Source: a virus (taxonomy: Duplodnaviria; Heunggongvirae; Uroviricota; Caudoviricetes). From it: DNA of 64,000 nucleotides. The DNA is taken from positions 75,336-139,335 of IMG/VR virus record IMGVR_UViG_3300044712_002452, one strand, 5' to 3'. Position numbers and translations under genes: made by a program. Below, piece after piece: positions 3,404 to 63,811 of this stretch (position 1 is the first letter of the stretch; each line of letters begins with the position of its first letter). The notes under the pieces were generated by a model. It was not told where the DNA came from. It did no database searches and saw nothing but the letters and a program-made list of their open reading frames with translations.

Positions 3404-4012
3404 CTATAATAGGGTTAACAATTCGGGGTTCTCGTGAATGTTGCCGATGACTTCGGCATTTTCTTCTTTGGTCTCATTTCTATAATGCTCAAGTGTTTGC
3501 TTTAATGATTTTATGGCACCCATCAAAGAAGGTAATCTCATAGCTGCCAGTCTTCCAAGGTTAGCCAGTTCTTTATCAGTCCACTTTTTGTCAAACAATT
3601 TTTGAGGTGCGCGCTCTTGCCAAAACTTAGGTATATCCGGGTAATTCCCCGGCTTGTAGAGATACAGTCCAGCAAAAGCGGGGATCTTCTCTAGCGCTAC
3701 ATCTTTGAGGCTATCTGGCACGGCGTATGAAAAGTATTTGAGTCTGCCAAAGTATAGCTCTATGCCTGTCTTGCCGTTATAGAATACTTCGTTTATTCGT
3801 GCATGATGCTTTTTCTTAAAGTCTGCAAGCAAATCTGACCTACTTACCTTTATTTCGTAGCAATGAGCATATCCTGAATTGGTTACGGCTAGCACATCAG
3901 CCTCAAAGCTTACCAAGCCGCTTATCTCTGTTACATTTGGCACTATGATAGTAGACCTGATTTTATAGCTTCCCATGATAGCCAGCTCTATATCTAAACA
4001 ATTCACTTTCAT
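3404..4012 (-). CDS. PD-(D/E)XK nuclease-like protein
   Basis: EADVLAV...CYEIKVSRSDL matches the D...E-x-K core of the restriction-endonuclease-like fold (MmcB-like). Confidence 0.45.
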   Translation of the reverse strand: MKVNCLDIELAIMGSYKIRSTIIVPNVTEISGLVSFEADVLAVTNSGYAHCYEIKVSRSDLLADFKKKHHARINEVFYNGKTGIELYFGRLKYFSYAVPDSLKDVALEKIPAFAGLYLYKPGNYPDIPKFWQERAPQKLFDKKWTDKELANLGRLAAMRLPSLMGAIKSLKQTLEHYRNETKEENAEVIGNIHENPELLTLL

Positions 4013-4027
4013 AACTCTATTTTAGAA

Positions 4028-4453
4028 TTAACACCAATAACTGATTTTCCAATAATACCCGTTGTTTAAAGGGAAAAGTAAATACCCTGAATAATTATCT
4101 TCACAAGCCCCGGTTTTTTGCCAAACTAAACTGTGAAACTCACCATTATCATCTTGCCTCATGTAATCAATATCTTCTCCAAAAAGTACAGAATAAGAGA
4201 CATCACCTTTTATTTTGTAGAAATCGTGACTTGGATAAAAACAACTTTTATAATCTGATTTTTCAACTTGCACATAACCTTCGTGTTTCCATTCAATGCC
4301 ATCAAGTTCCATTAAATCAAAGTCGTAGTTAATATGCTTTTTTACAAATTCGATAGCTTCTTCGTTTAACTTGGCGATACGCTCATATTCGATTTTCATG
4401 GTTTGGTGAAATTCAGACAAAGCTTTTTCAACTTGTTCTTTTGTGGGTGTCAT
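4028..4453 (-). CDS. hypothetical protein
   Basis: ORF 4028..4501. The start is probably the internal Met of MTPTKEQ, which avoids a long overlap. Confidence 0.4.
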   Translation of the reverse strand: MTPTKEQVEKALSEFHQTMKIEYERIAKLNEEAIEFVKKHINYDFDLMELDGIEWKHEGYVQVEKSDYKSCFYPSHDFYKIKGDVSYSVLFGEDIDYMRQDDNGEFHSLVWQKTGACEDNYSGYLLFPLNNGYYWKISYWC

Positions 4454-8152: not shown

Positions 8153-10231
8153 TTAGTTGAATAAGCCGAGTTCTACTTGTTGGTAAACTTTCGATTTTTC
8201 AGGTTTGATGTTGGATAATTTCACCCCTTTTAAATCGGATATTTCTTTGTAGATATTGTTTCGATAAAATTCTAAATCCACTTGATAATCCGCCCAATTT
8301 TGGTGTTCCGGAATTTTATTTACTTCTAATTGTAGCAACTTGCCGGCATGCACTTGTAGCTTTCTTTCATCTTGAGTGTTTATTTTCACCAGCTTTTGGC
8401 CTTGACGAGACATATAATAACGTACCGTACTGGGCATTTTTTTAGGTTTATTCCGACTATCCCGCAGATCGTAGCTCCAGAGTTCCCAATCACCCGATGC
8501 CCGAACGGCGCCAATAAAATCGTAGATTTCTCGGATATCTGAGAGATAGGTTTCCACCGGAATACCGTGGATGAAATAAAAATAGACGGCTTTCGGAATA
8601 CACAGAAAACTTCGGTTCTTGTGCAGAACAGAAACCACTCCTTTTTCCATTTCATACCACTCAAAGCGACCTTTACACTTAGTAGCTTGATATGCCATTA
8701 AATCGTCAATTTGCTTAAAGCGATAGTGAGGATTGCTTTTACGGACTTTTTGATACTCTTCGACAGTTTTGCACTTTTTCCAATCAAATACCGCGATATA
8801 GCTGTTTACATCCCAGATAAGCATTTCTGCATATTCATCAAATTCTAGCACCAACTGGGTTTTTTCCTGCCAGGCGGCGCATATCTGATCATAGAGTGCT
8901 TTATACTTGCGTGGAATAGCAAACTCCATACCATCCGTATTTTGCATCAAAGGAATCGCTGCCGGAATCGCTAACATTAATTCTTCAAAAAGCATCATCA
9001 AGAGTAACTGGCCGTTCAGTGTTACGCGCATCCCTAATTCGGGATCATAAAGAAAGCTGGTGGCATCGATACTCAATCCAAAAGTGGCATTCAAAATGAT
9101 CTTGAGTACGTAATTGGTCGGGTCCGACTTAGGAATAGCAATTCGCTGCTCATAGAACCATTCATAAAGTTCATTGAACTCTTTTACCGGTAAATGTGCC
9201 GGTGCCCATTTATTTCGAATGATCAAATTCGGATAATAGGATTTTACATCCAACGTGGCAATAAAGTATTCATCGTTTATCCGGTAATGGCCCGGACGCG
9301 CTCCGTGTACACCACCTAATGCAAATTTGATATCAGATCCGTGAAGATTGGTTTTAAATGAATACTTTTTTTCTCGTTCTTCTTTAGTCAACTGAACCGT
9401 GTAGTCAATTACAAGATTGCTAAACCATTTGTGTACAGCTTGAAACTCGGGAGTTTTAAAAGACACATAGGGTAAAATGATGTCTTTAGCTATTACTTTA
9501 TCCCGGGGAGTCCGTTTTTGTTTGAGTACCTTTTTAGATATCTTCAACTTTTCAGACAAGAAATGCAAAAATAGTTCTTTGCTGATACGGGGTTCAGAAG
9601 CATTCATCAAATTGATACCGTACTTGTGTGTCAAGCTTTGGCGCAAATGAATCTGCTCTTTACTTTTTTGCATGATAAACTTTGTACTCTCTACATCATT
9701 TATGCAGTACTCATCGACGATTTGTATGTCTTCCCAAGTATGAATTTCAGTATCGTGGTGAATTGGCATGGGTTGAAGATTTCTCCAGCCAGTCGCAAAT
9801 TGTAACCATTTAAGCGACACCATTTTTTGATCCCAATGATTCATTTTCATCAAATCGATGTGTCGAATCGGAAAATCCCTGGGGCTATGTAATCGGTATT
9901 CTTTTTTCCGAGATCGTTCAATGTGTTCTGCGGCCATTTTAGCCATCACTCGGGCAATGGTATCACCATCGGGTTCATCTATTAACCTGGTTCCTTCGAG
10001 CGTTAAATCCTGGAGCATATCGCAGACAAGCTGCATATCAAACTCTTCACCATTGAAATCAACCAACCAACCGTTTTGTTGAATCAATTCTCCTAAAAAA
10101 GCAATTAGCTTCGGGTAATCATTTCTCAATCGGTGAACTATGAAAACCTTTGTTTCATCACTCGATGTAGAAATAAACCGAGCCAAAAACAAATTTTTTA
10201 GGGTTTCAAAGTCAAACACCCATTGTTTCAT
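8153..10231 (-). CDS. DNA polymerase, family B
   Basis: Exo I VFDFET. Motif A LDVKSYYPNLII (DxxSLYPS-like). Motif B KIILNATFGLS (KxxxNSxYG-like). TDG in the motif C position. 692 aa. Confidence 0.7.
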   Translation of the reverse strand: MKQWVFDFETLKNLFLARFISTSSDETKVFIVHRLRNDYPKLIAFLGELIQQNGWLVDFNGEEFDMQLVCDMLQDLTLEGTRLIDEPDGDTIARVMAKMAAEHIERSRKKEYRLHSPRDFPIRHIDLMKMNHWDQKMVSLKWLQFATGWRNLQPMPIHHDTEIHTWEDIQIVDEYCINDVESTKFIMQKSKEQIHLRQSLTHKYGINLMNASEPRISKELFLHFLSEKLKISKKVLKQKRTPRDKVIAKDIILPYVSFKTPEFQAVHKWFSNLVIDYTVQLTKEEREKKYSFKTNLHGSDIKFALGGVHGARPGHYRINDEYFIATLDVKSYYPNLIIRNKWAPAHLPVKEFNELYEWFYEQRIAIPKSDPTNYVLKIILNATFGLSIDATSFLYDPELGMRVTLNGQLLLMMLFEELMLAIPAAIPLMQNTDGMEFAIPRKYKALYDQICAAWQEKTQLVLEFDEYAEMLIWDVNSYIAVFDWKKCKTVEEYQKVRKSNPHYRFKQIDDLMAYQATKCKGRFEWYEMEKGVVSVLHKNRSFLCIPKAVYFYFIHGIPVETYLSDIREIYDFIGAVRASGDWELWSYDLRDSRNKPKKMPSTVRYYMSRQGQKLVKINTQDERKLQVHAGKLLQLEVNKIPEHQNWADYQVDLEFYRNNIYKEISDLKGVKLSNIKPEKSKVYQQVELGLFN

Positions 10232-10326
10232 AGAAATAATAATTTGATGTGAAAAAAAAGGGTGATCTGGTAAATCACCCTTATAAACAGGAACACCTAC
10301 CTTGCATCTGAAAGGGTAGTGTATTT

Positions 10327-10881
10327 TTACACCTTTTTCAAAGATGTTTTAATCTCTGCCTTTTTTGCGGCTAATTCAGCAGCGGCTTTTTCGGCTGCAG
10401 CTTTTTCATCCGCTAATTTTTTCTCATACCGGGCCTGCATGATGGCTGTGGCTTCGGTTTTAAAGTCTGAATAAGTTTCTTCGGTTACTTCTTTGAGCGT
10501 TGCAAAATCAAAATTGAAAGTGTCTGGATTCATAGGCGTGACATACTTCATCAAAAACACTTGAATTTCTGAAGCATCGATGATTTGATACTCATCGTAG
10601 TTTTCAATTTCGGCATACTCTTTACGAGTACCTCGGCTGTCTGAAATTTCGTTACCGTAACTATCCAAAACATCCCGCAGGATTAAATTGCGTTTTTTGG
10701 TTTTTCCAACCAATACAAGCTTTTTGAAAATCGGATCGTAAAAGCCCTTTACAAAAGGACAATCATTGGATACCGGAATAAGGGTAAAAGATTCAAATGT
10801 GCGCTCCCAAATGGTTTTTACTGCGTACATCTGAAAGGGTGCCGGAGCAAGAAAAGGTCCCGGGGCAGTTGAATTAGACAT
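10327..10881 (-). CDS. hypothetical protein
   Basis: 184 aa. Two promoter-motif copies lie upstream at 10908-10939 and a terminator downstream at about 10254-10282. Confidence 0.5.
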   Translation of the reverse strand: MSNSTAPGPFLAPAPFQMYAVKTIWERTFESFTLIPVSNDCPFVKGFYDPIFKKLVLVGKTKKRNLILRDVLDSYGNEISDSRGTRKEYAEIENYDEYQIIDASEIQVFLMKYVTPMNPDTFNFDFATLKEVTEETYSDFKTEATAIMQARYEKKLADEKAAAEKAAAELAAKKAEIKTSLKKV

Positions 10882-10907
10882 AAAAATGGTTTGTAAATGT
10901 GGTTTAA

Positions 10908-10939
10908 TTCTACAAATATAGAATTGCCAAATCTACAAA
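10908..10939 (-). promoter_or_regulatory. two tandem TTTGTAGA(A/T)TT motif copies upstream of gene 10327..10881
   Basis: Minus strand reads TTTGTAGATTTGGCAATTCTATATTTGTAGAA. Confidence 0.45.
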
Positions 10940-10966
10940 CCAAATTTATATCTATAAAGTTAAACT

Positions 10967-11569
10967 TTATATTTCGGCAGCGGGATCCGCTTTGGATACT
11001 GCATTTTTTTTCAGTACTTCTGATCCAAAAGTCAACCCCCGGTAAGTCTCCCGATCCAGATCATACACATTGCACAGTTCTCCAACCTGTCGGATGATTG
11101 CTTCATCTACGTCGAGCAAAAAAGCGTACACGCCAAAGAATTGCTCCGGATAGATAAAAGTCTCCATATAAGCATATTCTCCCGAATTTGGACCGTAGTA
11201 ATACCGAATACGCTCTTTCAGGTGCGGAGATAGCTGAGAATACCGTCCGTCCAAAAACCGCCCCCAATCCCGCTCAAAGGATGTCATATCGTAGATATGC
11301 GCATGCCCGGTCTGCGTTAAAACCGTCTTTTCATACAATAGCGAGGCTTTGAGTACATGCTCTTCGTACAAAAGGAATTCGGGTGTATTGAGCTCAGGCA
11401 TTCGTTTGTCCACAACCAAAATCAAGCGGCAGTCTTCGGGTTTATAGTGTCCTTCCCAGGCAATAAAGCTGCTCAAACTGCGGACGTGCATGTTGTTTAC
11501 CGTACCGATCGCCGGTAGCAAAAAGCTCCGGCTCTTTTGAAAATACTTGCTGTAAGGTTTTGAAATCAT
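10967..11569 (-). CDS. hypothetical protein
   Basis: 200 aa ORF. Confidence 0.45.
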   Translation of the reverse strand: MISKPYSKYFQKSRSFLLPAIGTVNNMHVRSLSSFIAWEGHYKPEDCRLILVVDKRMPELNTPEFLLYEEHVLKASLLYEKTVLTQTGHAHIYDMTSFERDWGRFLDGRYSQLSPHLKERIRYYYGPNSGEYAYMETFIYPEQFFGVYAFLLDVDEAIIRQVGELCNVYDLDRETYRGLTFGSEVLKKNAVSKADPAAEI

Positions 11570-11593
11570 AGTGTTTTCGGGAGAGGTTTGTAA

Positions 11594-12682
11594 TCAGAGA
11601 ACTACCATCTTTTCAGCAAATTCGAAGGGTAAGTCAAATTGACGTTGTTTGTAATGGTAATCCGCTCTAAAAATCACTTCTTTTTTGAAGCGATCCTCCC
11701 ATTGTTTCAAAGTTTCAGAACGTACTTTGAAATTATAGGTGTTCAACAGATTATCGATCACCAGAAACGAAAAGCTGATTTCGTACCCTTTGCTCATTAG
11801 GTCTATGTGCTTGTAAGAAACAAGCAATTTGTACATAATGGCTTGTGCCCAATAGTTGTAGTTTTCCAACGATTCAACAAAATATTTCAATTCCCGGCCA
11901 ATGGTTTTCACATCGGTAATATGGATGATCTTTTTGTTGTGATCGATCACATAATTATCCAAAATACCTTTGATTCCAAACGCATAGTGCTTTAATTCGT
12001 AATTGATTTCTTGCTCATAAAAGCACTCGCGCCCTTCATTTTCGCTTTGATCCAAGCCCAGCAAAGTCATATACTCCGGAATGGCTTTGATTTTATCGAC
12101 TGCTTTACGGGCGTAACTGTCGATACCTTCATCGATTACGGTTTTACCCTGAGCCACCAACAAATAGTTCCAATAGGATTCATTGGCTGCACTCATCATC
12201 TTTTCCATTCTTTTGTCGTCACCGGTTTTGGCAACCACCCCGTTTTTATCGGCTTTATCGTCTTTAAGGGCTTGCCAATAGTCTAATTCGACCATTTTTT
12301 TGAGCATCAGCGCGCGGTAGCTGTACAAAGTGATCACGCCTTGATTGGTTTTACGCACTGAATCATTGTAGGCTTCATAAGCCGCATCTATTACCGCTTT
12401 GGCGTCACCGCTCGGTAAATTGGTCGGCATGACTACAAATTGCTTTCGATACTCATTTTCGGTGAGTAGTAAAGCGTGGATGGCTCTTCCGATTAACAAA
12501 TACCGGTCTTCTTTGATTTCTTTGAGTTTTAATACATACTCATCGAAAAAAGTCGCCGGGTTGTACAACAGTTTGCTCAATGAACTAAACGAAAAGAAAA
12601 ACTTTTTGGCAAAGAACTCTTCCGTTAAAATTCGGATTTCTTCTGGACTTAACTGTTCCCGTTTTGTAATCACTGTGGACAT
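11594..12682 (-). CDS. PD-(D/E)XK family exonuclease (recombination-type)
   Basis: IKGILDNYVIDHNKKIIHITDVKT matches the D...D/E-x-K core. 362 aa, sized like phage RecB-family exonucleases. Confidence 0.5.
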   Translation of the reverse strand: MSTVITKREQLSPEEIRILTEEFFAKKFFFSFSSLSKLLYNPATFFDEYVLKLKEIKEDRYLLIGRAIHALLLTENEYRKQFVVMPTNLPSGDAKAVIDAAYEAYNDSVRKTNQGVITLYSYRALMLKKMVELDYWQALKDDKADKNGVVAKTGDDKRMEKMMSAANESYWNYLLVAQGKTVIDEGIDSYARKAVDKIKAIPEYMTLLGLDQSENEGRECFYEQEINYELKHYAFGIKGILDNYVIDHNKKIIHITDVKTIGRELKYFVESLENYNYWAQAIMYKLLVSYKHIDLMSKGYEISFSFLVIDNLLNTYNFKVRSETLKQWEDRFKKEVIFRADYHYKQRQFDLPFEFAEKMVVL

Positions 12683-12744
12683 TGTGGTTGGTTTAAAATA
12701 GAAAAATCGCTTGGGTAGCGATTTTTATAGGTGAATAAATATTT

Positions 12745-13233
12745 TTAAATTCCTGGTTTCAGCATCAAATCGCGGCGGTAAAACTTACCCAAGATGTTAT
12801 CGTTGTAGCTTTCGTAAAACAATACGCCGTATTTGAACTGATAATAGATTTCGAAAAAAGTGAGTTGCTTTTTGGTCAGGCAGATTTGAAGAATTTCCCT
12901 TGAAAACTGTTCTTTACCTTGCTTTTTTACGTCTTCGATCAAAGCTGCAGCACTTCCGTAATAGTTTTTCCAGTTGCTTTCTTTACATACGGTTTTGTAG
13001 GATTTCCGACGTTTATCGGTAGATAGCTCTTTTTGAGAAAGAGCCACTTTGAGATTAGAAAACAAATTTTTTTTTCCGATGTAAAATTTCCCGGTTTGTA
13101 GATTTGTAATCTTGTATACAAAACCAAAAGGTTGAACCGGCGTACCAGGTACAACGCTATCCAAAATATTTGCTAAATCATTGATTATTAGAACAGGCTT
13201 ACCTTTATACATCCAAGAAAGTTGCTGACTCAT
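12745..13233 (-). CDS. GIY-YIG endonuclease (free-standing homing-endonuclease-like)
   Basis: FGFVYKITNLQTGKFYIGKK is a canonical GIY...YIG motif. Own promoter motifs at 13247-13261 and own terminator at 12703-12737. Confidence 0.7.
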   Translation of the reverse strand: MSQQLSWMYKGKPVLIINDLANILDSVVPGTPVQPFGFVYKITNLQTGKFYIGKKNLFSNLKVALSQKELSTDKRRKSYKTVCKESNWKNYYGSAAALIEDVKKQGKEQFSREILQICLTKKQLTFFEIYYQFKYGVLFYESYNDNILGKFYRRDLMLKPGI

Positions 13234-13247
13234 GTAATACGATATTT

Positions 13248-14330
13248 CTACAAATCTACAATAAAATGATTTATTTGTAGATTTATATTCATCGTTTTAT
13301 GAAGTTGATTCAAGAGTTCTTTACGACAAATAGAACGTTTGATTTTTTCGGTACATTCAGCCATATCTTTAATCTTAAATTGATCATTGGGTACCGGTGG
13401 TTTAAAAATGATAGGTAGTACATTCAATTCGGATCGGTATTTTTCCATGGCTTGCAGGCCGGCTGCATCCGTATCCAGTAACGTAAACACCCGATTGTTG
13501 TACCGTTGTTTTAAACCTATAATAACGGGTTCTCCCAGCAAAGTAGTTTCGCTATGTGGCGCTACGAAATCAATGCCCAGGTTTAGTTCACTCATGGCCA
13601 TTCCATCTTTGAGAGAAGCCATAATCAAACAAGACTTGTTGATTTCAGGATTGAGCTGGTCATATCCTTGCAAATAATCGAATATCTTGATGAATTTTCC
13701 TTGCGATTTACCAGGGCTGTAAATTTTGTACAATTCTCCGTTTTTGGTAAAATATCCATAAATCAATCCCGCTTGTTCAGATACCGCAAAATAGTCTTCG
13801 TATTTATTTTTGTTCACCATCACATAATAACTCAGAGGTCGAACATTAAACCGATCTAAAGTAGCGGAACTGATTTTTGGTTTGGACCAAAATTGAATAT
13901 CCAGGCTATTCCAAGAACGTACTTGATAGGCTGAGACTTCGTATTTACTTGAAACCGTGGCGTTTTCCGCTTTGGGTGTGATGGGTTTAACACAACCGCC
14001 GCTACTCAGATATTTTTGATAATCCTGGATGATGTATTGAATAGTTAACCCATAGGAAAACGAGTGACCGTATTGTTGTTCAAGTAAATAGCGCACAAGC
14101 TGAACATGATTGCCTTTTTTTCCGGTCGAAAAATCATTCCATCGCCATTTTTGAATATCCGTCGCAAAGAAAATAAACATGCTGGGTTCATTGTCACCGG
14201 CATTAAAAAGGCTTTTCATCCTGGCCGTTTTCCCTTCGATAAGGGGTTCATCTAATCCGCAATATTGTTCATAAACCCAAGTTTCCGGTACTTCATCTAT
14301 ACTTAAAATGACGTGTTGTAACTGTAGCAT
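13248..14330 (-). CDS. DNA primase, TOPRIM domain
   Basis: TOPRIM-like E...DxD: LGIDFVAPHSE...VFTLLDTDAAG. Sits next to the DnaB-like helicase. Confidence 0.5.
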   Translation of the reverse strand: MLQLQHVILSIDEVPETWVYEQYCGLDEPLIEGKTARMKSLFNAGDNEPSMFIFFATDIQKWRWNDFSTGKKGNHVQLVRYLLEQQYGHSFSYGLTIQYIIQDYQKYLSSGGCVKPITPKAENATVSSKYEVSAYQVRSWNSLDIQFWSKPKISSATLDRFNVRPLSYYVMVNKNKYEDYFAVSEQAGLIYGYFTKNGELYKIYSPGKSQGKFIKIFDYLQGYDQLNPEINKSCLIMASLKDGMAMSELNLGIDFVAPHSETTLLGEPVIIGLKQRYNNRVFTLLDTDAAGLQAMEKYRSELNVLPIIFKPPVPNDQFKIKDMAECTEKIKRSICRKELLNQLHKTMNINLQINHFIVDL

Positions 14331-14348
14331 CTGTTGAGCATTTAGAAC

Positions 14349-14389
14349 GGAAAAAAGAGCTCTTAGTGAGTTTTACCCCACTAAGAGCT
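14349..14389 (-). terminator. rho-independent terminator
   Basis: 13-bp stem AGAGCTCTTAGTG/ACTAAGAGCT, followed on the minus strand by CTTTTTTCC. Confidence 0.55.
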
Positions 14390-14416
14390 ACTTTTAAAAT
14401 AATGAATATTCCGTGA

Positions 14417-15304
14417 TTACAACAATTCAAAATCCGGCGCCGGCGTCCAGCCACCTACGGGTTCAGGGGCACTATCTTGTTGCGGATAGAGCATGTTTCC
14501 GGAAGATTGCGGAGCGGCTGCAGGCTGTGGAAACTGCGGATGCGGGGCAGTACCCACTTGACTAGCGGCTGCGGCCACAGCTTGTCTAAACGCGGGTGCC
14601 GGTGCCGCGGCTTGAGCCACACTGGCGTTGGGATCATTAGCTGCAGCAGTGCCCGCCGGAACCTTTACATACAAGTGACTTTTGTTCTTGTCTAAAGGAT
14701 GGGTTGGCAAATAATCCGCAACTTTTCTTGGATTAGCGGTAACCGGCTCGAAAGCAACAGCTGATTGCTTCCAACTGGGCAGATGCAAGTAGTACACTTC
14801 ATGACCATTTTGATTTACCGTTTGTGTACCACAAAGCAACCAATACAACCAGTTGTTTTGATCTTTTAGGATCACACGGTTAAATTCTCTGATCAAATCC
14901 GCGATCGTGCCTGCTTGCAATGAAATCACTTGATCTTCTTTACCCAAAGCTTTACCCAAAGTCCGGAGCGCTTTTTGAGTACTGGTAGTCACAAAGTATT
15001 CTCTACCTTCTGACACTTTATCTTCAAAAGCAAAAGCCGAGTACTTTACCCGAGAACTGCGCCCTTTGAAACGACCCAAACTTTCATTGTCTTTGTCAAT
15101 AAACCATCCTTCAAAAGACGGATCGGTTTCAGGTTGACCTTCCAAAAGCAAAATCAGGTCATAGGTACCTTCTTTAAAGCTCGGTTCCAAGCTTATCTGA
15201 CGAAGGTTAGCGATTACGTTTCCGGGGTGCAAGCTTTTAGGAATAAAAGACGATTCCGTTTTGATTTCATCCCAATTAGACAACTTGTTTGTTACATTCG
15301 ACAT
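14417..15304 (-). CDS. putative ssDNA-binding/annealing protein with disordered Pro/Gln/Ala-rich C-terminal tail ending DFELL
   Basis: Structured N-terminal about 200 aa, then a low-complexity tail. The C-terminal tip ...GGWTPAPDFELL is like SSB-family partner-binding tails. Located in the recombination module. Confidence 0.35.
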   Translation of the reverse strand: MSNVTNKLSNWDEIKTESSFIPKSLHPGNVIANLRQISLEPSFKEGTYDLILLLEGQPETDPSFEGWFIDKDNESLGRFKGRSSRVKYSAFAFEDKVSEGREYFVTTSTQKALRTLGKALGKEDQVISLQAGTIADLIREFNRVILKDQNNWLYWLLCGTQTVNQNGHEVYYLHLPSWKQSAVAFEPVTANPRKVADYLPTHPLDKNKSHLYVKVPAGTAAANDPNASVAQAAAPAPAFRQAVAAAASQVGTAPHPQFPQPAAAPQSSGNMLYPQQDSAPEPVGGWTPAPDFELL

Positions 15305-15352
15305 ACGATTGTGATTTACGATTTACGATTGATTTTTTTTGATTCTTTTTTG

Positions 15353-16357
15353 TTAAGAAAAATCCACTTCCGGGAAGATTTGATTCCAATAGGTTTCACC
15401 TTTCCCGAATAGATTTCCTTCGGCGTCAGCGATATCGCCGTTTTCATCGGTTTGATGCAAGTCAGCGATTTTGATGATTTTACCACCTAAATGACGCGGG
15501 CGAGCATCCAAATCCGTTTCGTCTCTTTTCTGAAAGTCAAGAAATACACCTTTGTCATTACGCACACAAATAGCAATAGCGGGAGCGTGGGCAGTGAATA
15601 TGGTGGGAAGCGCCCCTTCCAAGGCAAGGTCAACGGTCGAAATTTCTTCATCGGTTTTCTTGAGTACCGATTTTTTCATTTTGATATGACCGTTGTAAAT
15701 AATGAACGGAGCCGCGTTCTTTTCAATAAAGTTTTTGATGTTTTCCAATGCTGAGCGGATGTGTTTGGCTCCACCGTAATTATCCGCTTTGCGAATGTCT
15801 GCTTTGATTTTGTTGGGATCTGTGACAAAGTAATTAAACTCCGCCAGCGCTGCTCCATCGACCATGTTTTTAAAATGAGTCAATGTGTCAATTACAAATA
15901 CTGGAAACTTCATTTGATTGATTAATTCCACCAGCGCTTTGTAAGTATCCGGTGAACGGTCTTGTTCAAGCTGATCATACAAAGCTTCAAATTTGCTCAT
16001 ATGATTTACTTTGCGCAATTCCTGCACCACTTCGTACAAAGGCGTTGGAATAAAAGCACCGGTTTTGGTAATCATGTAAGGCGCCGGCAATTTTCCGGTA
16101 GCATCCGGAATTACCCGTGTCAATGACACCACGTTGTTGGCTTTAAAATAAGCCGTTCCCCCTTCACAATCCCCTATGAGAATTTTAGGTACATTGACCA
16201 TATTATCTGTTTTTCCTGTCTTGGGAAAAGAGATAATCACCATACTACGCGGCGACTTTAAAAAAGCATCCGCACTTTGAACCAAATTACCTTCATTATC
16301 CAAAGGCAATCTTCGATACACCGGCGGTTTAGCTGCCGGAGACACAGTTGTTGACAT
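15353..16357 (-). CDS. RecA-like P-loop ATPase (AAA_24/Sak4-like)
   Basis: Walker A IISFPKTGKTD and Walker B VFVIDTLTH. Acidic C-terminus ...EVDFS. Confidence 0.5.
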   Translation of the reverse strand: MSTTVSPAAKPPVYRRLPLDNEGNLVQSADAFLKSPRSMVIISFPKTGKTDNMVNVPKILIGDCEGGTAYFKANNVVSLTRVIPDATGKLPAPYMITKTGAFIPTPLYEVVQELRKVNHMSKFEALYDQLEQDRSPDTYKALVELINQMKFPVFVIDTLTHFKNMVDGAALAEFNYFVTDPNKIKADIRKADNYGGAKHIRSALENIKNFIEKNAAPFIIYNGHIKMKKSVLKKTDEEISTVDLALEGALPTIFTAHAPAIAICVRNDKGVFLDFQKRDETDLDARPRHLGGKIIKIADLHQTDENGDIADAEGNLFGKGETYWNQIFPEVDFS

Positions 16358-17072: not shown

Positions 17073-18143
17073 TTACGGCTGATTTAAAATTTGTGACATG
17101 CTCAAAGGTTTGAAATTTCCTAAAGGCATATTTGCTGAAAAAGCTTGATTGTGCAGATTGGATGCATTTTTTTGATTCTGCGCAATTTGAGCAGCCAAGT
17201 ATTTAGGATCATCTAATGGGTCGTATTCTACCATGCGCATATTGTGAAAATGAGCATCCAAAAAGAACATATCGATTGCACCGTTCCGCATTTTATTGAC
17301 GTGCACGGCAATGGTGTTATTAGTCACTGGGTATTTATGCGGTCCGTATTCTTTGATAGAGTGCTTACCCGGCCGGTTTAACATCAACAGCATATCGGTA
17401 TGCATCAATAAAGCGTCTGATCCGTACAAATCGGAATCCAACAAATAGTTTCCGGCACTGGCATTTTTTAATCGATCGCTGGATTCTGAATTTCGGTTTA
17501 ACTGAGAAAGTACAAAGAAGATCACCGGATAACGGCGTTTCATACGGGTCAAAGCTTCACCGAGTTTATGCAAAATCAACATATTGTCAGTATCGGTACC
17601 GTTTTTCAAAAACAACAAAGCATGGTCAATGGTGACAATCATAGGCTTATTGTAAGCTTTAAAGAAATCATCTACCATTTTTTCAAAATTGGCCACCGTT
17701 TTAGGGTCTTGCGCTACGTAGATATGCTCATACGAACGGTTAATCATGTAATGTTCTGCTGCTTTGAGATCCACATCATCCAATCGAACCCCTTTGGCAC
17801 TGGCCAGCTCTTGAATCGATTTACCAATTCCTGCACTGATGTCTCGTAAACCCATGGTTCGATAAATCATTTCCCATTGACAATCCAAAACCGCAAAATC
17901 CTGACCCGGATTTAACGCAAAAGCAGATCGGGTAAACTGATTGACAAATAGAGTTTTTCCGGTACCGGGTCGAGCACCTAATACGTTGATAGTATTCCAC
18001 TCAACCCCATCAATACCCAAATTATTCAAAGTCGGCCAAGGTGTCAATAAAGACTTAATATGACCGTCGCGCCGCCCCATAATGTAAGCGAGCGATTCTT
18101 TATAGACATCTGAAATATGTACCCAATCTGCAACAGGAAGCAT
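17073..18143 (-). CDS. replicative helicase, DnaB-like RecA-fold C-terminal domain
   Basis: Walker A LGARPGTGKT. DnaB H3/H4-like LLDSDLYGSDALLMHTDMLLMLNR. Arg finger MRNG. Confidence 0.7.
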   Translation of the reverse strand: MLPVADWVHISDVYKESLAYIMGRRDGHIKSLLTPWPTLNNLGIDGVEWNTINVLGARPGTGKTLFVNQFTRSAFALNPGQDFAVLDCQWEMIYRTMGLRDISAGIGKSIQELASAKGVRLDDVDLKAAEHYMINRSYEHIYVAQDPKTVANFEKMVDDFFKAYNKPMIVTIDHALLFLKNGTDTDNMLILHKLGEALTRMKRRYPVIFFVLSQLNRNSESSDRLKNASAGNYLLDSDLYGSDALLMHTDMLLMLNRPGKHSIKEYGPHKYPVTNNTIAVHVNKMRNGAIDMFFLDAHFHNMRMVEYDPLDDPKYLAAQIAQNQKNASNLHNQAFSANMPLGNFKPLSMSQILNQP

Positions 18144-18147
18144 ATTA

Positions 18148-18333
18148 TTATTTTAAATATATTTTATGTACCTCACGTTCAAAAAAATAAAATAGAGAAA
18201 CAATAAAATCAATTACAACCATTTCCCAAATTTTGAGTTTTCCGCCTAAAAGCATATTGATTATCGTAAAAGCCGCGACGGAAAATATAATCGAGTTCAA
18301 TAATATAAGAACCGCTCGTTTTAAATAATTCAT
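18148..18333 (-). CDS. small membrane protein
   Basis: 61 aa, two hydrophobic segments. Confidence 0.35.
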   Translation of the reverse strand: MNYLKRAVLILLNSIIFSVAAFTIINMLLGGKLKIWEMVVIDFIVSLFYFFEREVHKIYLK

Positions 18334-18536
18334 TCTTGGTCAATTAAAGATGTGTAATCGGGTTCAGTGGCCAGCCAATACTTGAATTCAGCTACTTGGA
18401 TTTCAGGTTTAAACTGATGTCCTAATTTTTCTTTGGCGTACTTGTGATAAGCTTCCCGAATTTTGGTCTTTTTAAATCCGTATTCGTCACTCATTAAAGT
18501 CACCAAATCTTCAGGGATTTCTAAGATGATGTTCAT
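18330..18536 (-). CDS. hypothetical small protein
   Basis: 68 aa, translationally coupled to neighbours. Confidence 0.35.
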   Translation of the reverse strand: MNIILEIPEDLVTLMSDEYGFKKTKIREAYHKYAKEKLGHQFKPEIQVAEFKYWLATEPDYTSLIDQE

Positions 18537-19126
18537 GAAAAAAATGGACTTTGGGTGTTTTTTAAAATAGTAGTCAGCGTTAAAGTGTGAACGGCTTGAA
18601 TTTTTGCGTCTTCGTACCCATTATGAATCGGTTTGGGTACATAGATTTCAGAATCGAACAAACTCGTCAGTGTTCGGTAACACATTTCGTTTCTAAATTC
18701 CCATGGAAGCGGTTGATCCGGCTGATATTTATCGTAGTACGATTTCAATAAGCGTAAATCGAAACTGGGTGATTTAGCCCATAAATAAGTTGATTCCATC
18801 GGGTGCATATTTAAAAATGCCCGAAATTCCGATAGCTGCAAATTATTCACATTGGATATATGCAGGGATTCAAGATATTCTTCTTTGAGCTTTTTGGCAT
18901 CTTTACCAATCCACCAAGCTAAGGTATCCAAACCCATAGTAAAACCATCTTTAAGGCTTTCCCGAACATTGAGTTTTCGATTAAAATTCGCTATCGGGTC
19001 CAGTTTGTTTTCTTTGATAGAAAATCCAACTGCCCCAATTTCAGTAATAATGGCTCCAGGTTTGTTGTCCAAAGTTTCAATGTCTACCATGATATGGTGA
19101 CCTTCCAAAAGTTTTTTACTTAGCAT
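18533..19126 (-). CDS. DEDD-family 3'-5' exonuclease (DnaQ-like)
   Basis: Exo I IMVDIETLD and Exo III H-x4-D, HNGYEDAK. Confidence 0.6.
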   Translation of the reverse strand: MLSKKLLEGHHIMVDIETLDNKPGAIITEIGAVGFSIKENKLDPIANFNRKLNVRESLKDGFTMGLDTLAWWIGKDAKKLKEEYLESLHISNVNNLQLSEFRAFLNMHPMESTYLWAKSPSFDLRLLKSYYDKYQPDQPLPWEFRNEMCYRTLTSLFDSEIYVPKPIHNGYEDAKIQAVHTLTLTTILKNTQSPFFS

Positions 19127-19743
19127 GATTGGTGTTGATTTAAAAGAATTTGTTGAACGTTTTCAGGTAATTCGTGTGGATACTGACCGTCTAAGATTCG
19201 TTGATACATATCGGCCAGCGGACTAATAATGGATTTACTGTCTTTGTCGTGTCGTAGTATAAAATACTGCGAACAATGACTAAAAGCAAAATCTTCCTGC
19301 GTTTTGATTTCCAGATACCAGGCTGTAGCCAGTAAAATGATATCCCATTCTACCATAGAGGTAAACATGGTAAAAAAGCTTTGAAAGGTTTTTTTGAGAA
19401 TCAGCGCCGGCTGCCGAGCATATTTACCACTGTCCAATAATTTTGCAGGCCACATCATCCGATAATATTCAATTAAAGCATCTGGAATTTCAATATCCGA
19501 AGGTTTCTTAGCTTTTGGCTTTTTGACTTTAATAGGCGGTGCCGGGAAGAGCTGACTTAACGCCAACTCCCCCTGTTCCGTAATGGAAGCACCTTGCATC
19601 AGACCCTTGTTTACCAAGGCGGCATACTCTTTATTAATGTCAATATCTAAGGGTTGAACTCTTTCTTTATAACACAACATCAGATAAATCTGGTTGGGTG
19701 TTAATTTGAAGGGTTTCGCACTTAGCAGAAATTTCTTTAGCAT
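19120..19743 (-). CDS. hypothetical protein
   Basis: 207 aa. Start uncertain; it may be the internal Met near 19680. Confidence 0.4.
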   Translation of the reverse strand: MLKKFLLSAKPFKLTPNQIYLMLCYKERVQPLDIDINKEYAALVNKGLMQGASITEQGELALSQLFPAPPIKVKKPKAKKPSDIEIPDALIEYYRMMWPAKLLDSGKYARQPALILKKTFQSFFTMFTSMVEWDIILLATAWYLEIKTQEDFAFSHCSQYFILRHDKDSKSIISPLADMYQRILDGQYPHELPENVQQILLNQHQSC

Positions 19744-20344
19744 ACAGGATTTCCAACTCTGTTAAGATTCTTTCGTAGATATTTTGGATAATAGGCTCTT
19801 CTTGGATCCAATCAGACCCAATCTGTAAATTGTGAATAACGGTACTGTGATCCCGGGGTTTCCGAAAGGAATTACCCAATTCTTTGAGTGAAGTAACCGA
19901 ACTGTACGTATGCGCAATCATAGCAAAACAATAGCGATAGTACAGGTATTCTCTTTCCCGATTGTAAGCCGTGACCATAATAGGGTTCAATCCATCTTGT
20001 GCAGCAATTTTTTCAACGATATCTCGAACTTGTTTGACCGGAAAGTGTTTTCTCGGTAATTCGGTCATTTTGTACCAAACTTCAGGGGCAATTCCGACTT
20101 TTTCAAAGAAAGCTTTTTTAAATTCACGGATCATTTTATCCGCCATGATGCGCTGATATTCACGGACTTCAGCCAGTTCAATATTGGTCAATTTGTCGGG
20201 ATCCGTTTTGAGTTTTTTAAACGAAAGCTCGTATTTAGGAATTCGTTCTTCTCGAGCCATTTTTACTTGATCCTGATAGTTTTGTCGTTGGTACCCTCTT
20301 CCGGGTACAAAAACCCGTTTTTTTCGTGTTCGGTGTAAGGTCAT
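19667..20344 (-). CDS. DnaA C-terminal (domain IV) DNA-binding domain homolog
   Basis: REYLYYRYCFAMIAHTYSSVTSLKELGNSFRKPRDHSTVIHN aligns with E. coli DnaA domain IV, R..ARQ.AMAL....[20 protein letters not shown]. ATG at 20344 verified; the promoter motif at 20391-20401 lies upstream. Confidence 0.6.
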   Translation of the reverse strand: MTLHRTRKKRVFVPGRGYQRQNYQDQVKMAREERIPKYELSFKKLKTDPDKLTNIELAEVREYQRIMADKMIREFKKAFFEKVGIAPEVWYKMTELPRKHFPVKQVRDIVEKIAAQDGLNPIMVTAYNREREYLYYRYCFAMIAHTYSSVTSLKELGNSFRKPRDHSTVIHNLQIGSDWIQEEPIIQNIYERILTELEILYAKEISAKCETLQINTQPDLSDVVL

Positions 20345-20390
20345 GGGGCATATTTTACTGATTGATAGATTAATTTTGTATATTTTATTA

Positions 20391-20425
20391 AGTCTACAAA
20401 TGTAACGGGTTATATTTGTAGAATT
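20391..20425. promoter_or_regulatory. divergent promoter pair carrying TTTGTAGA motif in both orientations
   Basis: AGTCTACAAATG faces the minus gene whose start is 20344. TATATTTGTAGAATT faces the plus gene whose start is 20466. TATATTTG matches the Bacteroidetes -7 element TAnnTTTG. Confidence 0.55.
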
Positions 20426-20465
20426 ATTTTTTTCACTTATTTTTTTTTGTCCAATACCTAATTCT

Positions 20466-20798
20466 ATGAGCGTGAATAACTTAACTGGATTTAAAGCTTG
20501 GTTGACTCCGGTTATCGGAAGTGTACTGTGGTTTTTTATTTGGAGAGATTTATCAGAGCTACGCAGCGATGTAAAAATTCTCTTAGAAAACAAAACCGAA
20601 TCCAGTGGAGAGATTAAAATACTCAAAGAAGATATGCAGCGGGTAAAGGACCGATTGTGGTACAATCCTTCTTCACAAACCCCAGTTTCACAGACGGCTT
20701 TTATCAATACACCCGATAATGCGCGTCAAAAAGGGCCTATGTATCCAAAATGTCGCAAAGGCTATGCGGCATTCATCCATAAAGAAGATGAAGATTAA
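20466..20798 (+). CDS. membrane protein, first gene of lysis cassette (holin-like candidate)
   Basis: N-terminal TM VIGSVLWFFIW. Sits directly upstream of spanin and lysozyme. The promoter motif TATATTTGTAGAATT lies 45 nt upstream. Confidence 0.4.
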   Translation: MSVNNLTGFKAWLTPVIGSVLWFFIWRDLSELRSDVKILLENKTESSGEIKILKEDMQRVKDRLWYNPSSQTPVSQTAFINTPDNARQKGPMYPKCRKGYAAFIHKEDED

Positions 20799-49252: not shown

Positions 49253-49274
49253 GTTTTATACTTTAGGTGGAAAC

Positions 49275-49350
49275 AAATCTACAACTTAAATCTACATTTC
49301 CAAATTTATTTGTAGAATAATTTTGCGGTTTCAATTTAGTTTGTAGATTT
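49275..49350. promoter_or_regulatory. cluster of four TTTGTAGA-family motifs (two per orientation) at the edge of the switch region
   Basis: AAATCTACAAC and AAATCTACATTT on the minus side. TTTGTAGAATAA and TTTGTAGATTT on the plus side. Confidence 0.45.
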
Positions 49351-49418
49351 GCATCCAGCAATCGTGGGAGCTTAACCGGGGGCGGTTGAGATCCTTTATG
49401 TTGGGGTACAAGTTTCGT

Positions 49419-49452
49419 TAATTTTGTGTTTTAGGGACCGACCTGCGTTTTT
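49419..49452 (+). terminator. plus-strand rho-independent terminator inside the non-coding switch region
   Basis: GACCTGCG-ttttta-CGCGGGTC then TTTTTTTTG. No plus-strand CDS lies upstream of it. Confidence 0.5.
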
Positions 49453-50251
49453 ACGCGGGTCTTTTTTTTGCCTAAAAATCAAGTCTCTAAAATAATTTTG
49501 TAGATATAAAAACCGTTTGTAGATTTGTTGCCCAACATAGGATTGTTTATCAATCCATCGGTTGATGTATGTTCGGCTGCGCTATCGCCCCCGCTTTAAA
49601 ACTTGGTGACAAGTAGGGTTACGGGAATTCGGTAGGGTACCCGATGTCGGTTCTGCCGGCGCTTAAAGCACAAATTGAGGTACGTAAAATCCATGGGTCT
49701 GCTTTGATTAAAACATTATTCAAGGTTCGTTTCGGGGGAAACTAAGATTCATCTCTTGTAAAGGTTCACGGGTAAAACCGGGAACGGACAAACAAACTCT
49801 CTGAGGCTTTAAGGGTATATCAACCGCTGATCAAGCAACCGGGAAAAATTAAACCCGGTTGCTTTATACCAGGAGCGAACCCGCTCGTGTTAACCCTCGG
49901 TATATACTTCTTACAATAGGTCTTGTATGTTTTGAGTAAGGTTAGAAAAATTGACTGTATCCTTCGAATGTACTTGCTTTCAGGACCTATCCCACGCACG
50001 CACACGCGTAAGCACCCATTCCAATCGTAAAAATTTTTCCCCGCCGGCATGGGCCGGACATAAAAAAGCCCCAAGATAAATAGCTCGGGGCGTATGGTGA
50101 TATCCTGAACTTCACCATTGACCTACAACAAAAATAAAAAAATAAATGTAGGAAAGAAAATTAATTCGCTTTTTATTGTAGATATATTTTGTAGATTAAA
50201 ATACTATTTGTATGTTCGTATTATCTATTCTCTGAATTCAAGTTAAAATCC

Positions 50252-53705: not shown

Positions 53706-53720
53706 AATCCTTATCCTATG
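53706..53720 (+). promoter_or_regulatory. late-gene start-context motif AATCCTTATCCTATG
   Basis: The same motif abuts the ATG of terL (53718), the portal gene (55958, ATATCCTATG), the capsid gene (60176) and the gene at 63812. Confidence 0.45.
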
Positions 53721-58735: not shown

Positions 58736-58806
58736 TTTTTTGTAGAATTTGAAATTTATTCTACAAATGATTATATTATAATTGTAGATAAAACCAACTA
58801 TTTGAT

Positions 58807-60123: not shown

Positions 60124-60175
60124 TCTGAAAACCTATGAAAAATTATATTAATCAATAATCCTTAATCCTTATCCT

Positions 60176-63714: not shown

Positions 63715-63811
63715 AATATTTTTTTTCTAAAAATCAAAAGCCTTCTATTTTTTGATTATATTCTAATTGCAAGCTTTACTTAAACTTTTTATTTTATAAA
63801 ACCCTTATCCT

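What the first reader, a model, noticed from the sequence alone, without database searches (positions are those of the whole stretch)
19667..20344. Phage protein with a clear DnaA domain-IV (DnaA-box-binding) homology region
The ...SLKELGNSFRKPRDHSTVIHN... segment aligns with the DnaA signature helix-turn-helix, without the AAA+ domain. It could bind host oriC or DnaA boxes to block host initiation or redirect replication, or serve as an origin-binding protein. Related TTATCC-containing motifs recur at late gene starts.
Basis: partly seen in the sequence, partly recalled or inferred. Interest (0 to 1): 0.6.

Follow-up and report, generated by a model that had tools for sequence, protein, structure and literature searches.

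The report
Phage stand-alone DnaA domain-IV protein
A crAss-like phage carries a small protein that is a true copy of the DNA-binding end of the bacterial replication starter DnaA, placed as the first gene of the phage's DNA-replication operon; such proteins are common and already annotated in phages, but what DNA they bind has never been tested.

Summary
Window 19667-20344 (- strand) encodes a 225-aa protein (197 aa if it starts at M29) whose residues ~103-200 are a real DnaA domain IV. Support: Pfam PF08299 above its cut-off, profile match to PDB 1J1V at E 1e-19, and an AlphaFold model that superposes on 1J1V (TM 0.87). It has no AAA+ domain. The DNA-contact residues are kept (R399, R407, D433, H434, T436, H439 equivalents; T435 is S, P423 is K).

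The phage is crAss-like, about 139 kb. In 31 related viral contigs the gene is always first in a conserved replication operon. It overlaps a ~200-aa partner gene, and the operon continues with DnaB-like helicase, primase and polymerase. At least 287 IMG/VR contigs encode relatives, and UniProt already names many "DnaA C-terminal".

Canonical DnaA boxes are not enriched in the phage or near relatives' genes.

My best reading (about 0.4) is a sequence-specific DNA-recognition subunit of the phage replication-initiation module. Rivals are a competitor for host DnaA boxes and a GafA/GafY-like transcription factor. This is a new member of a known kind, of modest interest.

The parts
19667..20344 (-). 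CDS of the stand-alone DnaA domain-IV-like protein (225 aa from the ATG at 20344; the stop codon is included)
   Evidence: ORF list; Pfam PF08299; orthologues in 31 syntenic IMG/VR loci
20258..20260 (-). Alternative start codon (M29), which gives the 197-aa product called by JGI
   Evidence: P0001 is 197 aa and 100% identical over 88% of the query. Orthologues begin at about our residues 57-60, so either start leaves a lineage-specific N-terminal extension.
19826..20026 (-). Core of the DnaA domain IV match (aa 107-173). The whole fold spans about aa 103-200.
19829..19855 (-). Recognition-helix signature R164-D-H-S-T-V-I-H-N172 (= E. coli DnaA R432-A440). The basic-loop arginines R129, R131 and R137 (= R399, R401, R407) lie upstream at 19934-19960.
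   Evidence: hhalign residue mapping; column conservation in 43 and 123 relatives
20345..20465 (.). Divergent 121-bp control region between the replication operon (leftward) and a three-gene cassette ending in a lysozyme gene (rightward)
20389..20426 (.). 18-nt-arm palindrome made of two back-to-back TAnnTTTGTAGA boxes (20393-20404 on -, 20411-20422 on +). These are most likely divergent Bacteroidota sigma-A -7 promoter boxes.
   Evidence: the TAnnTTTG consensus is from PMC9723704
20373..20387 (-). TAAAATATACAAAAT, the window's one-mismatch version of the conserved element CTACA(A/T)TATAATATAC(A/G)AAAT. That element occurs once per locus, 45-80 nt upstream of the orthologous gene, in 27 related loci. 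It is a candidate promoter, operator or origin core.
19120..19743 (-). Partner gene (207 aa; weak N-terminal winged-helix signal). It overlaps the 3' end of the DnaA-IV gene by 77 nt. The same overlap (38-110 nt, same frame offset) is present in all 32 loci.
17073..18143 (-). DnaB_C-type replicative helicase, the third conserved gene of the module
   Evidence: Pfam DnaB_C E 4e-16; phrog_19; best tblastn hits are Crassvirales helicases
8153..16357 (-). Rest of the conserved replication operon: Sak4/AAA_24-like protein (15353-16357), primase (13248-14330), an inserted GIY-YIG endonuclease (12745-13233), PD-(D/E)XK nuclease (11594-12682) and DNA polymerase (8153-10231)

Best explanation
The gene encodes a stand-alone DnaA domain-IV helix-turn-helix protein. 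I read it as the sequence-specific DNA-recognition component of the phage's own replication-initiation module.

Shown:
- The fold and the DNA-reading residues of DnaA domain IV are retained, while the AAA+ motor and domain I are absent.
- The gene is the first cistron of a replication operon conserved in a clade of crAss-like phages.
- It is translationally overlapped with a ~200-aa partner gene that is followed by a DnaB-like helicase.

Inferred:
- The protein binds one or a few specific sites on phage DNA. The best candidate is the conserved element plus flanking TGTAGA boxes in its own 120-bp upstream region.
- It autoregulates the operon there and/or marks a start site.
- Through its family-specific N-terminal helix, and together with the coupled partner, it recruits the phage helicase. 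This would be the logic of initiator-loader-helicase trios such as SPP1 G38P-G39P-G40P or lambda O-P.
- DNA melting would have to come from partners, because the protein has no ATPase.
For: Homology and fold.

Contact residues are conserved in 123 relatives (R399 118/123, R407 122/123, H434 123/123, D433 118, T436 119, H439 112).

Position and synteny:
- The gene is always the first gene, before partner, helicase, primase, PD-(D/E)XK nuclease and polymerase, in 31 IMG/VR loci plus the window.
- The 38-110-nt overlap with the partner gene keeps the same frame offset in all 32 loci.
- In unrelated viral groups relatives sit next to full-length DnaB, primase, ERF, a DnaD-like Lin1244_N protein, or a BT4734-type primase-helicase.

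Annotation: 4 relatives match phrog_30669, named 'replication initiation protein'.

Candidate site: a unique, nearly invariant 16-mer lies 45-80 nt upstream in 27 loci, while the rest of the spacer varies. TGTAGA is about 7-fold enriched in that spacer.
Against: - No iteron array or DnaA-box cluster lies in or next to the gene in the window or in seven orthologous loci.
- DnaA-box-like 9-mers are at chance inside the genes (0.25 per kb against 0.24 per kb outside).
- They are also at chance in about 84 kb of this genome.
- In the L002/L008 phages a clear iteron origin sits beside a different DNA-binding gene (HTH_36), 2 kb from the DnaA-IV gene. There the family member is not the obvious origin binder.
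- Near-invariance of the base-reading residues across phages of many hosts fits a conserved (host) target better than phage-specific origins.
- The conserved 16-mer contains TATAAT and may simply be the operon's promoter.
- The TTTGTAGA boxes behave as generic promoters. They point at downstream genes of both early and late operons.
Confidence: 0.4

Rival explanations
1. Host DnaA-box competitor. The protein is a motor-less DnaA domain IV that occupies DnaA boxes on the host chromosome (oriC, the dnaA promoter and other DnaA-regulated promoters). This would block host initiation or DnaA-dependent regulation and free replication resources for the phage.
For: - Both readers of the DnaA box are kept: the minor-groove arginine (R129 = R399) and the recognition helix D-H-S/T-T..H.
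- They are kept across viral relatives from very different phage groups.
- The phage DNA itself shows no excess of DnaA boxes, so the conserved target may not be on the phage.
- There is no AAA+ domain, so the protein cannot build the unwinding filament.
- The roles of R399/S400 and T435 are as stated in PMC9638019.
Against: - Conserved first position in the replication operon and the frame-conserved overlap with a helicase-associated partner are not needed for a host-shut-off factor.
- The P423 equivalent is not conserved (K in 49, P in 20 of 123), so specificity may differ from DnaA.
- No published phage example was found in the paper library.
- The host and its oriC are unknown.
Confidence: 0.25
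2. Transcription factor. The protein regulates phage transcription from promoter-proximal sites, as repressor or autoregulator of the replication operon or as activator of another class. The precedents are GafA and GafY, DnaA-domain-IV-like proteins that activate gene-transfer-agent genes.
For: - GafY is homologous to DnaA domain IV and binds promoters (PMC9632790).
- The N-terminal DnaA-like domain of GafA is needed to activate RcGTA promoters (PMC9638019).
- The conserved 16-mer and inverted TGTAGA boxes overlap the promoter region of the protein's own operon.
- In the window, TTTGTAGA boxes occur as inverted pairs at several intergenic sites: 13247/13274, 20393/20415 and 58739/58760.
Against: - GafA has lost the R399 equivalent (E8), whereas this family keeps it.
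- No sigma-like or GafZ-like partner is present.
- TTTGTAGA is not enriched in other phages that carry family members, and it matches the host sigma-A -7 box.
- Genomic neighbours are replication and recombination genes in every group examined.
Confidence: 0.2
3. The match is a chance or structural-only resemblance: a generic helix-turn-helix with no DnaA-like DNA recognition.
For: The single-sequence Pfam score is only 0.6 bit above the cut-off, and phmmer against PDB sequences found nothing.
Against: - Profile searches are decisive: E 9.5e-20 to 1J1V and hhalign 98.8%.
- 42 of 43 relatives hit PF08299.
- The model superposes on 1J1V at rmsd 1.7 A.
- The contact residues are invariant or nearly so.
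Confidence: 0.02

Closest known systems
DnaA domain IV (Pfam PF08299 Bac_DnaA_C; E. coli DnaA 374-467, PDB 1J1V)
   Same: - Same fold (TM 0.87, rmsd 1.7 A).
- Same basic-loop arginines and the same D-H-T/S-T-x-x-H recognition helix.
   Different: - No domains I-III, so no ATP binding, no filament formation and no DnaB-binding domain I.
- It has a family-specific N-terminal helix (aa 54-83) and a longer C-terminal helix and tail.
- The P423 equivalent is K.
- No DnaA boxes were found on its own genome.
Phage proteins already annotated 'Chromosomal replication initiator, DnaA C-terminal' or 'DnaA protein' (e.g. Cellulophaga phages phi19:1 and phi19:3, Tenacibaculum phage Gundel_1, Flavobacterium phage tooticki6-1, many uncultured Caudovirales; phrog_30669 and phrog_16091; 'DnaA-like replication initiator' of Bacillus phage Pony, PMC3853050)
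   Same: They are 100-200-aa stand-alone domain-IV proteins of phages, and where I examined the neighbourhood of viral relatives they sit in replication modules. Structural matches have probability 1.0. None has been tested experimentally as far as the library shows.
   Different: - Sequence identity is only 13-26%.
- tblastn of the window protein against 50,697 phage records finds nothing.
- This clade has its own N-terminal helix.
- It has a fixed position as first cistron of a crAss-like replication operon and a conserved overlap with a partner gene.
GafA (Rhodobacter capsulatus) and GafY/HdaB (Caulobacter crescentus CCNA_01111)
   Same: Both are short proteins or domains homologous to DnaA domain IV that act away from oriC. 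They are encoded in or for phage-derived elements (PMC9632790, PMC9638019, PMC7049699).
   Different: - They are transcription activators of GTA clusters and work with a sigma-like or GafZ partner and RNA polymerase omega.
- GafA lacks the R399 equivalent.
- They are alphaproteobacterial chromosomal genes, not part of a replication operon.
Initiator-loader-helicase gene trios of phages (SPP1 G38P-G39P-G40P, lambda O-P plus host DnaB); stated from general knowledge
   Same: The gene order is DNA-binding protein, then small adaptor, then replicative helicase, at the head of the replication operon.
   Different: - The DNA-binding folds are unrelated.
- In those phages the origin repeats lie inside or beside the initiator gene. 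No such repeats are seen here.

Membership tests
Bac_DnaA_C (PF08299) / DnaA domain IV superfamily | Score at or above the Pfam gathering threshold | tested here: met
   32.1 bits against 31.5, E 1.2e-7. 42 of 43 relatives also match, best E 9.8e-22.
Bac_DnaA_C (PF08299) / DnaA domain IV superfamily | Domain-IV fold (helical bundle with helix-turn-helix and basic loop) | tested here: met
   AlphaFold model with pLDDT 86. Foldseek top hit is 1j1v_A at TM 0.87 and rmsd 1.7 A over 98 columns; 3pvp gives TM 0.85.
Bac_DnaA_C (PF08299) / DnaA domain IV superfamily | Basic-loop arginine that enters the minor groove (E. coli R399) and R407 | tested here: met
   R129 and R137 align to R399 and R407. 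They are conserved in 118/123 and 122/123 relatives.
Bac_DnaA_C (PF08299) / DnaA domain IV superfamily | Recognition-helix residues D433, H434, T435, T436, H439 | tested here: met
   D165, H166, S167 (a conservative T to S change), T168 and H171. H is invariant in the family.
Bac_DnaA_C (PF08299) / DnaA domain IV superfamily | P423 of the turn, a base contact in E. coli DnaA (stated from my recollection of Fujikawa 2003; the paper was not readable) | tested here: not met
   K154 in this protein. Across the family the residue is K in 49, P in 20 and S in 14 of 123.
Bac_DnaA_C (PF08299) / DnaA domain IV superfamily | Specific binding to the 9-bp DnaA box TTATNCACA | not testable with these tools
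   This needs EMSA or SELEX. Indirectly, no excess of such boxes is seen on phage DNA.
Chromosomal replication initiator DnaA (TIGR00362 equivalog) | Full-length score and presence of the AAA+ domain III and the N-terminal domain I | tested here: not met
   21.6 bits against a cut-off of 343.9. Only model positions 346-436 are matched, and there is no Bac_DnaA or DnaA_N hit.
Phage or plasmid origin-binding initiators (functional class) | Cluster of repeated binding sites (iterons or boxes) with an AT-rich region in or next to the initiator gene | tested here: inconclusive
   No iteron array is present in the window or in seven orthologous loci. There is only a single conserved 16-mer plus short TGTAGA boxes in the 120-bp spacer. 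About 55 kb of the genome was not seen.
Phage or plasmid origin-binding initiators (functional class) | Gene linked to a helicase or helicase loader at the head of the replication module | tested here: met
   The order DnaA-IV, partner, DnaB_C helicase holds in 32 loci. The gene is adjacent to a helicase or primase in other groups.
GafA/GafY-type GTA activators | Association with a sigma-like or GafZ partner and a GTA or late structural cluster it activates | tested here: not met
   Neighbours are replication genes. No sigma-like domain is detected. The R399 equivalent is retained, unlike GafA E8.

The most novel reading that the evidence does not exclude
Stand-alone DnaA domain-IV proteins, present in hundreds of phage lineages, are decoys or competitors for the host's DnaA boxes. 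They would be motor-less copies of the initiator's DNA-reading head that sit on host oriC and DnaA-regulated promoters to shut down host initiation during infection. That would explain why their base-reading residues stay DnaA-like in phages of unrelated hosts while the phage genomes carry no DnaA-box clusters.
Probability: 0.22. Interest if true: 0.7.

Novelty: new member of a known kind. Interest (0 to 1): 0.3.

Why it matters
Phage proteins consisting of little more than DnaA's DNA-binding head are widespread: at least 287 IMG/VR contigs and many UniProt entries. They are routinely labelled "replication initiator" without any experiment.

This clade offers a clean test case, for four reasons:
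- The gene has a fixed position at the head of a crAss-like replication operon.
- It has a translationally coupled partner.
- A single conserved upstream element is available as a candidate site.
- There are no DnaA boxes on the phage.

Finding what the protein binds would decide between three roles: origin recognition for a major group of Bacteroidota phages (I found no description of one in the one literature search I ran on crAss-like replication origins), host-replication shut-off by initiator mimicry, or transcription control of the GafA/GafY kind.

Tried and rejected
- **Canonical DnaA boxes as the phage target.**
  - At chance in the window (21 against 18.7, none perfect), with no clusters.
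  - No clusters in 20 kb of flanking genome either.
  - At chance around 80 relatives (12 against 9.8) and inside the genes.
  - TTATNCACA at -23 to -26 occurs in only 5 related loci and coincides with the TAnATTTGT promoter box.
  - The two box-like 9-mers inside the gene (19783, 19831) are compatible with chance.
- **CCTTATCCT as a related site.** Rejected, because it abuts ATG codons.
- **TTTGTAGA boxes as operators of this protein.**
  - They are enriched (24 against 6.8) and partly palindromic.
  - However, they contain the Bacteroidota -7 consensus and point at downstream genes of early and late operons.
  - They are also absent from other phages carrying family members. They are most likely promoters.
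- **Word-indexed homology searches.** These returned only the protein itself, both for this gene and for the partner.
- **Phage database searches.** DNA and tblastn searches of 50,697 phage records with the window sequences found nothing.
- **Identity of the 207-aa partner.**
  - No Pfam, PHROG or PDB match.
  - hhalign to the crAss 'ScpB-like' protein upstream of the helicase gave only 3.6% probability.
- **Domain fusions among longer relatives.** Uninformative. P0002 is a false positive made of VWA repeats.
- **C-terminal tail motif (E/Q-P-x-L..L) as an interaction peptide.** Cannot be trusted, because that DNA also encodes the conserved N-terminus of the partner in another frame.
- **Fujikawa 2003 (PMC153737).** Could not be read. 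Contact-residue roles rest on PMC9638019, PMC11511705 and my own knowledge.

Full report
**What is there**

Window 19667-20344 (- strand) is an ORF of 225 codons starting MTLHRTRKK.... JGI's own gene call for the identical sequence starts at M29 (197 aa).

Orthologues elsewhere begin at about our residues 57-60. Either start therefore leaves an N-terminal extension peculiar to this phage. A conserved upstream element lies 34 nt before the ATG at 20344, a spacing similar to that in the closest orthologous subgroup. This mildly favours the long form.

**Is the DnaA homology real?**

Yes. The evidence is as follows.
- The single sequence passes Pfam Bac_DnaA_C narrowly: 32.1 bits against 31.5, E 1.2e-7.
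- It matches only the last ~90 positions of the NCBIfam DnaA model.
- An exhaustive HMMER search of 1.84 billion representatives found 43 further hits at E up to 1e-3. One of these (P0002) is a VWA-repeat false positive; the rest are nearly all stand-alone proteins of 100-200 aa covering our residues ~60-225.
- A profile of these proteins hits E. coli DnaA domain IV (PDB 1J1V) at E 9.5e-20 and B. subtilis DnaA (8BTG) at 3.7e-19.
- hhalign gives 98.8% probability.
- 42 of the 43 proteins hit PF08299.
- An AlphaFold model (pLDDT 86) has 1J1V as best PDB match, with TM 0.87 on the target and rmsd 1.7 A.

The residue mapping is:

| This protein | E. coli DnaA |
|---|---|
| R129 | R399 |
| R131 | R401 |
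| R137 | R407 |
| K154 | P423 |
| D165 | D433 |
| H166 | H434 |
| S167 | T435 |
| T168 | T436 |
| H171 | H439 |

R399 and S400 lie in the minor groove and T435 contacts bases (PMC9638019). The recognition helix and the basic loop are the DNA-contacting parts (PMC11511705).

Across 123 relatives these positions are almost invariant, except P423. Positions 432-439 are partly biased by the scan pattern, but R399 and R407 are not. The unbiased 43-sequence set shows the same conservation. No AAA+ domain and no domain I are present.

**Genomic setting**

The phage is crAss-like.
- The 541-aa protein at 60176-61801 carries the Crass_capsid domain.
- The helicase's best database relatives are Crassvirales helicases.
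- The source contig is 139 kb. By my comparison of the contig coordinates its two ends overlap by about 110 nt, so the assembly is circular.
- The recurrent TAnnTTTG boxes fit a Bacteroidota host.

The gene heads a leftward replication operon: DnaA-IV protein, 207-aa unknown, Rv2179c-like exonuclease, DnaB_C helicase, Sak4-like ATPase, primase, GIY-YIG insert, PD-(D/E)XK nuclease and DNA polymerase. To its right, transcribed divergently, are three genes ending in a lysozyme gene.

**Relatives and synteny**

A scan of IMG/VR found at least 287 viral contigs encoding a relative, and 80 were fetched. I clustered all their ORFs.

In 31 loci plus the window the gene order is the same. A divergent cassette sits on one side, followed by DnaA-IV, the ~192-aa partner, the helicase, further conserved genes, primase, nuclease and polymerase.

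The DnaA-IV gene's 3' end overlaps the partner's start by 38-110 nt. The frame offset is the same in all 32 cases. This suggests translational coupling. It also means the apparently conserved C-terminal tail may be a by-product of the overlapping frame.

Other viral groups place relatives elsewhere:
- directly after a BT4734-type primase-helicase, near ERF and a PD-(D/E)XK nuclease;
- next to full-length DnaB, primase, ERF, a DnaD-like Lin1244_N protein, GapR or a methylase.

BFVD shows many viral proteins already named 'Chromosomal replication initiator, DnaA C-terminal'. These include proteins of Cellulophaga, Tenacibaculum and Flavobacterium phages. The kind is therefore already annotated, and JGI's precomputed Pfam had already flagged this very protein.

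**What DNA might it bind?**

Canonical DnaA boxes are not the answer on the phage.
- In the window there are 21 sites with up to one mismatch against 18.7 expected. None is perfect and there are no clusters.
- There are no clusters in 20 kb of flanking genome.
- There are 12 perfect boxes against 9.8 expected in 1.06 Mb around relatives.
- There is no excess inside the genes.

It directly abuts the ATG of three late genes, including the capsid gene, and it lacks the CACA half of the DnaA box. I regard it as unrelated.

The 121-bp spacer upstream of the gene holds an 18-nt-arm palindrome formed by two TAnnTTTGTAGA boxes. TTTGTAGA recurs 21 times in the window, mostly pointing at downstream genes of both leftward and rightward operons. 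It contains the sigma-A -7 consensus. It is not enriched in other phages that carry family members. I therefore read these boxes as promoters.

More specific is a 16-mer, CTACA(A/T)TATAATATAC.
- It occurs exactly once per locus, 45-80 nt upstream of the orthologous gene, in 27 loci.
- It is nearly invariant while the rest of the spacer varies.
- The window has a one-mismatch version at 20373-20387.
- It could be the operon's promoter, an operator or an origin core; sequence alone cannot tell.

No iterons lie in or beside the gene. In the L002/L008 phages a textbook iteron array lies beside a different HTH gene.

**Mechanism**

Three readings remain.

1. *Replication-initiation recognition subunit* (my choice, about 0.4). 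This rests on the invariant position at the head of the replication operon, the coupling to a partner and helicase, and the replication or recombination neighbours in every group.
2. *Host DnaA-box competitor* (about 0.25). This rests on the near-perfect retention of DnaA's base-reading residues in phages of unrelated hosts and on the lack of boxes on phage DNA.
3. *Transcription factor of the GafA/GafY kind* (about 0.2; PMC9632790, PMC9638019). This rests on precedent and on the promoter-proximal conserved element. However, GafA has lost the R399 equivalent and works with sigma-like partners that are absent here.

None of the three is shown. DNA binding itself is inferred from residue conservation.

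**Comparison and novelty**

The protein is a member of the DnaA domain-IV superfamily. It meets the score, fold, basic-loop and recognition-helix criteria but lacks the P423 equivalent. It is not a DnaA: it has no AAA+ domain or domain I, and its TIGR00362 score is far below the cut-off.

Stand-alone phage versions are widely annotated but untested in the literature I could search. The following appear to be new:
- the definition of this clade, with its N-terminal helix and its place as first cistron of a crAss-like replication operon;
- the conserved overlap with a partner gene;
- the unique upstream element;
- the negative result for DnaA boxes.

This is a new member of a known kind, of modest interest (0.3), with a more interesting but less likely host-mimicry reading.

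Noticed in passing
window 49253-50250: A non-coding stretch of about 1 kb lies at the main strand switch. Two pairs of promoter-like TTTGTAGA boxes (49309/49340 and 49497/49516) are each followed by GC-rich, structured-looking sequence and a hairpin plus T-run (about 49434-49470 and 50064-50095). These look like two non-coding RNAs of about 100 and 550 nt. No Rfam family matched at E below 0.07.
   Followed up: partly
window 53709-53717, 60167-60175, 63803-63811 (+); variants before the ATGs at 55958 and 21490: CCTTATCCT sits immediately before the start codons of late genes, including the Crass_capsid gene. At 60148-60175 it is preceded by four tandem TTAATCC units. It is pyrimidine-rich and not Shine-Dalgarno-like. 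It may be a late-gene leader or translation element; its role is unexplained.
   Followed up: partly
L013-L039, 45-80 nt upstream of the DnaA-IV gene (e.g. L014:1249-1264); window 20373-20387: The 16-mer CTACA(A/T)TATAATATAC is nearly invariant and unique per locus across 27 related phage contigs whose proteins are only about 35-40% identical. It contains TATAAT, which is unusual for Bacteroidota-type promoters.
   Followed up: partly
window 13241-13285, 20389-20426, 58739-58767: TTTGTAGA boxes occur as inverted pairs with 13-19-nt spacers. At 13.26 kb and 58.75 kb one arm has no gene to serve, so divergent promoters do not fully explain the palindromes.
   Followed up: partly
L002:7984-8124 and L008:7984-8097: In an unrelated phage group that also carries a family member, five 23-bp iterons (GAAAAAATCTTCTATACCCCCAT) plus an AT-rich block lie between an HTH_36 gene and a BT4734-type primase-helicase. 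This is a likely replication origin.
   Followed up: no
L091 (same genome, left of the window): 3874-4092, 13024-15894, 19466-20762: The phage also encodes an Acb2/Tad1-hairpin-like small protein (an anti-defence sponge family), a Prok_Ub + Prok-E2_D + ThiF ubiquitin-like cluster, and an ORF of about 2271 aa.
   Followed up: no
window 12745-13233 (-): A GIY-YIG (SegE-like) homing-endonuclease gene is inserted between the primase and the PD-(D/E)XK nuclease gene. It is absent from the syntenic loci. An exonuclease and two small ORFs (18148-19126) are likewise inserted between the partner gene and the helicase.
   Followed up: partly
window ~19638: The end of the JGI contig falls 29 nt past the stop codon of the DnaA-IV gene, and by my coordinate comparison the contig ends overlap by about 110 nt. 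This is a circular-assembly breakpoint, not a biological terminus.
   Followed up: yes
window 19831-19839 (-): The codons for V-I-H of the recognition helix (GTT ATT CAC A) themselves spell TTATTCACA, which matches the relaxed DnaA-box consensus. Across relatives such intragenic boxes are at chance frequency, so this is a curiosity.
   Followed up: yes
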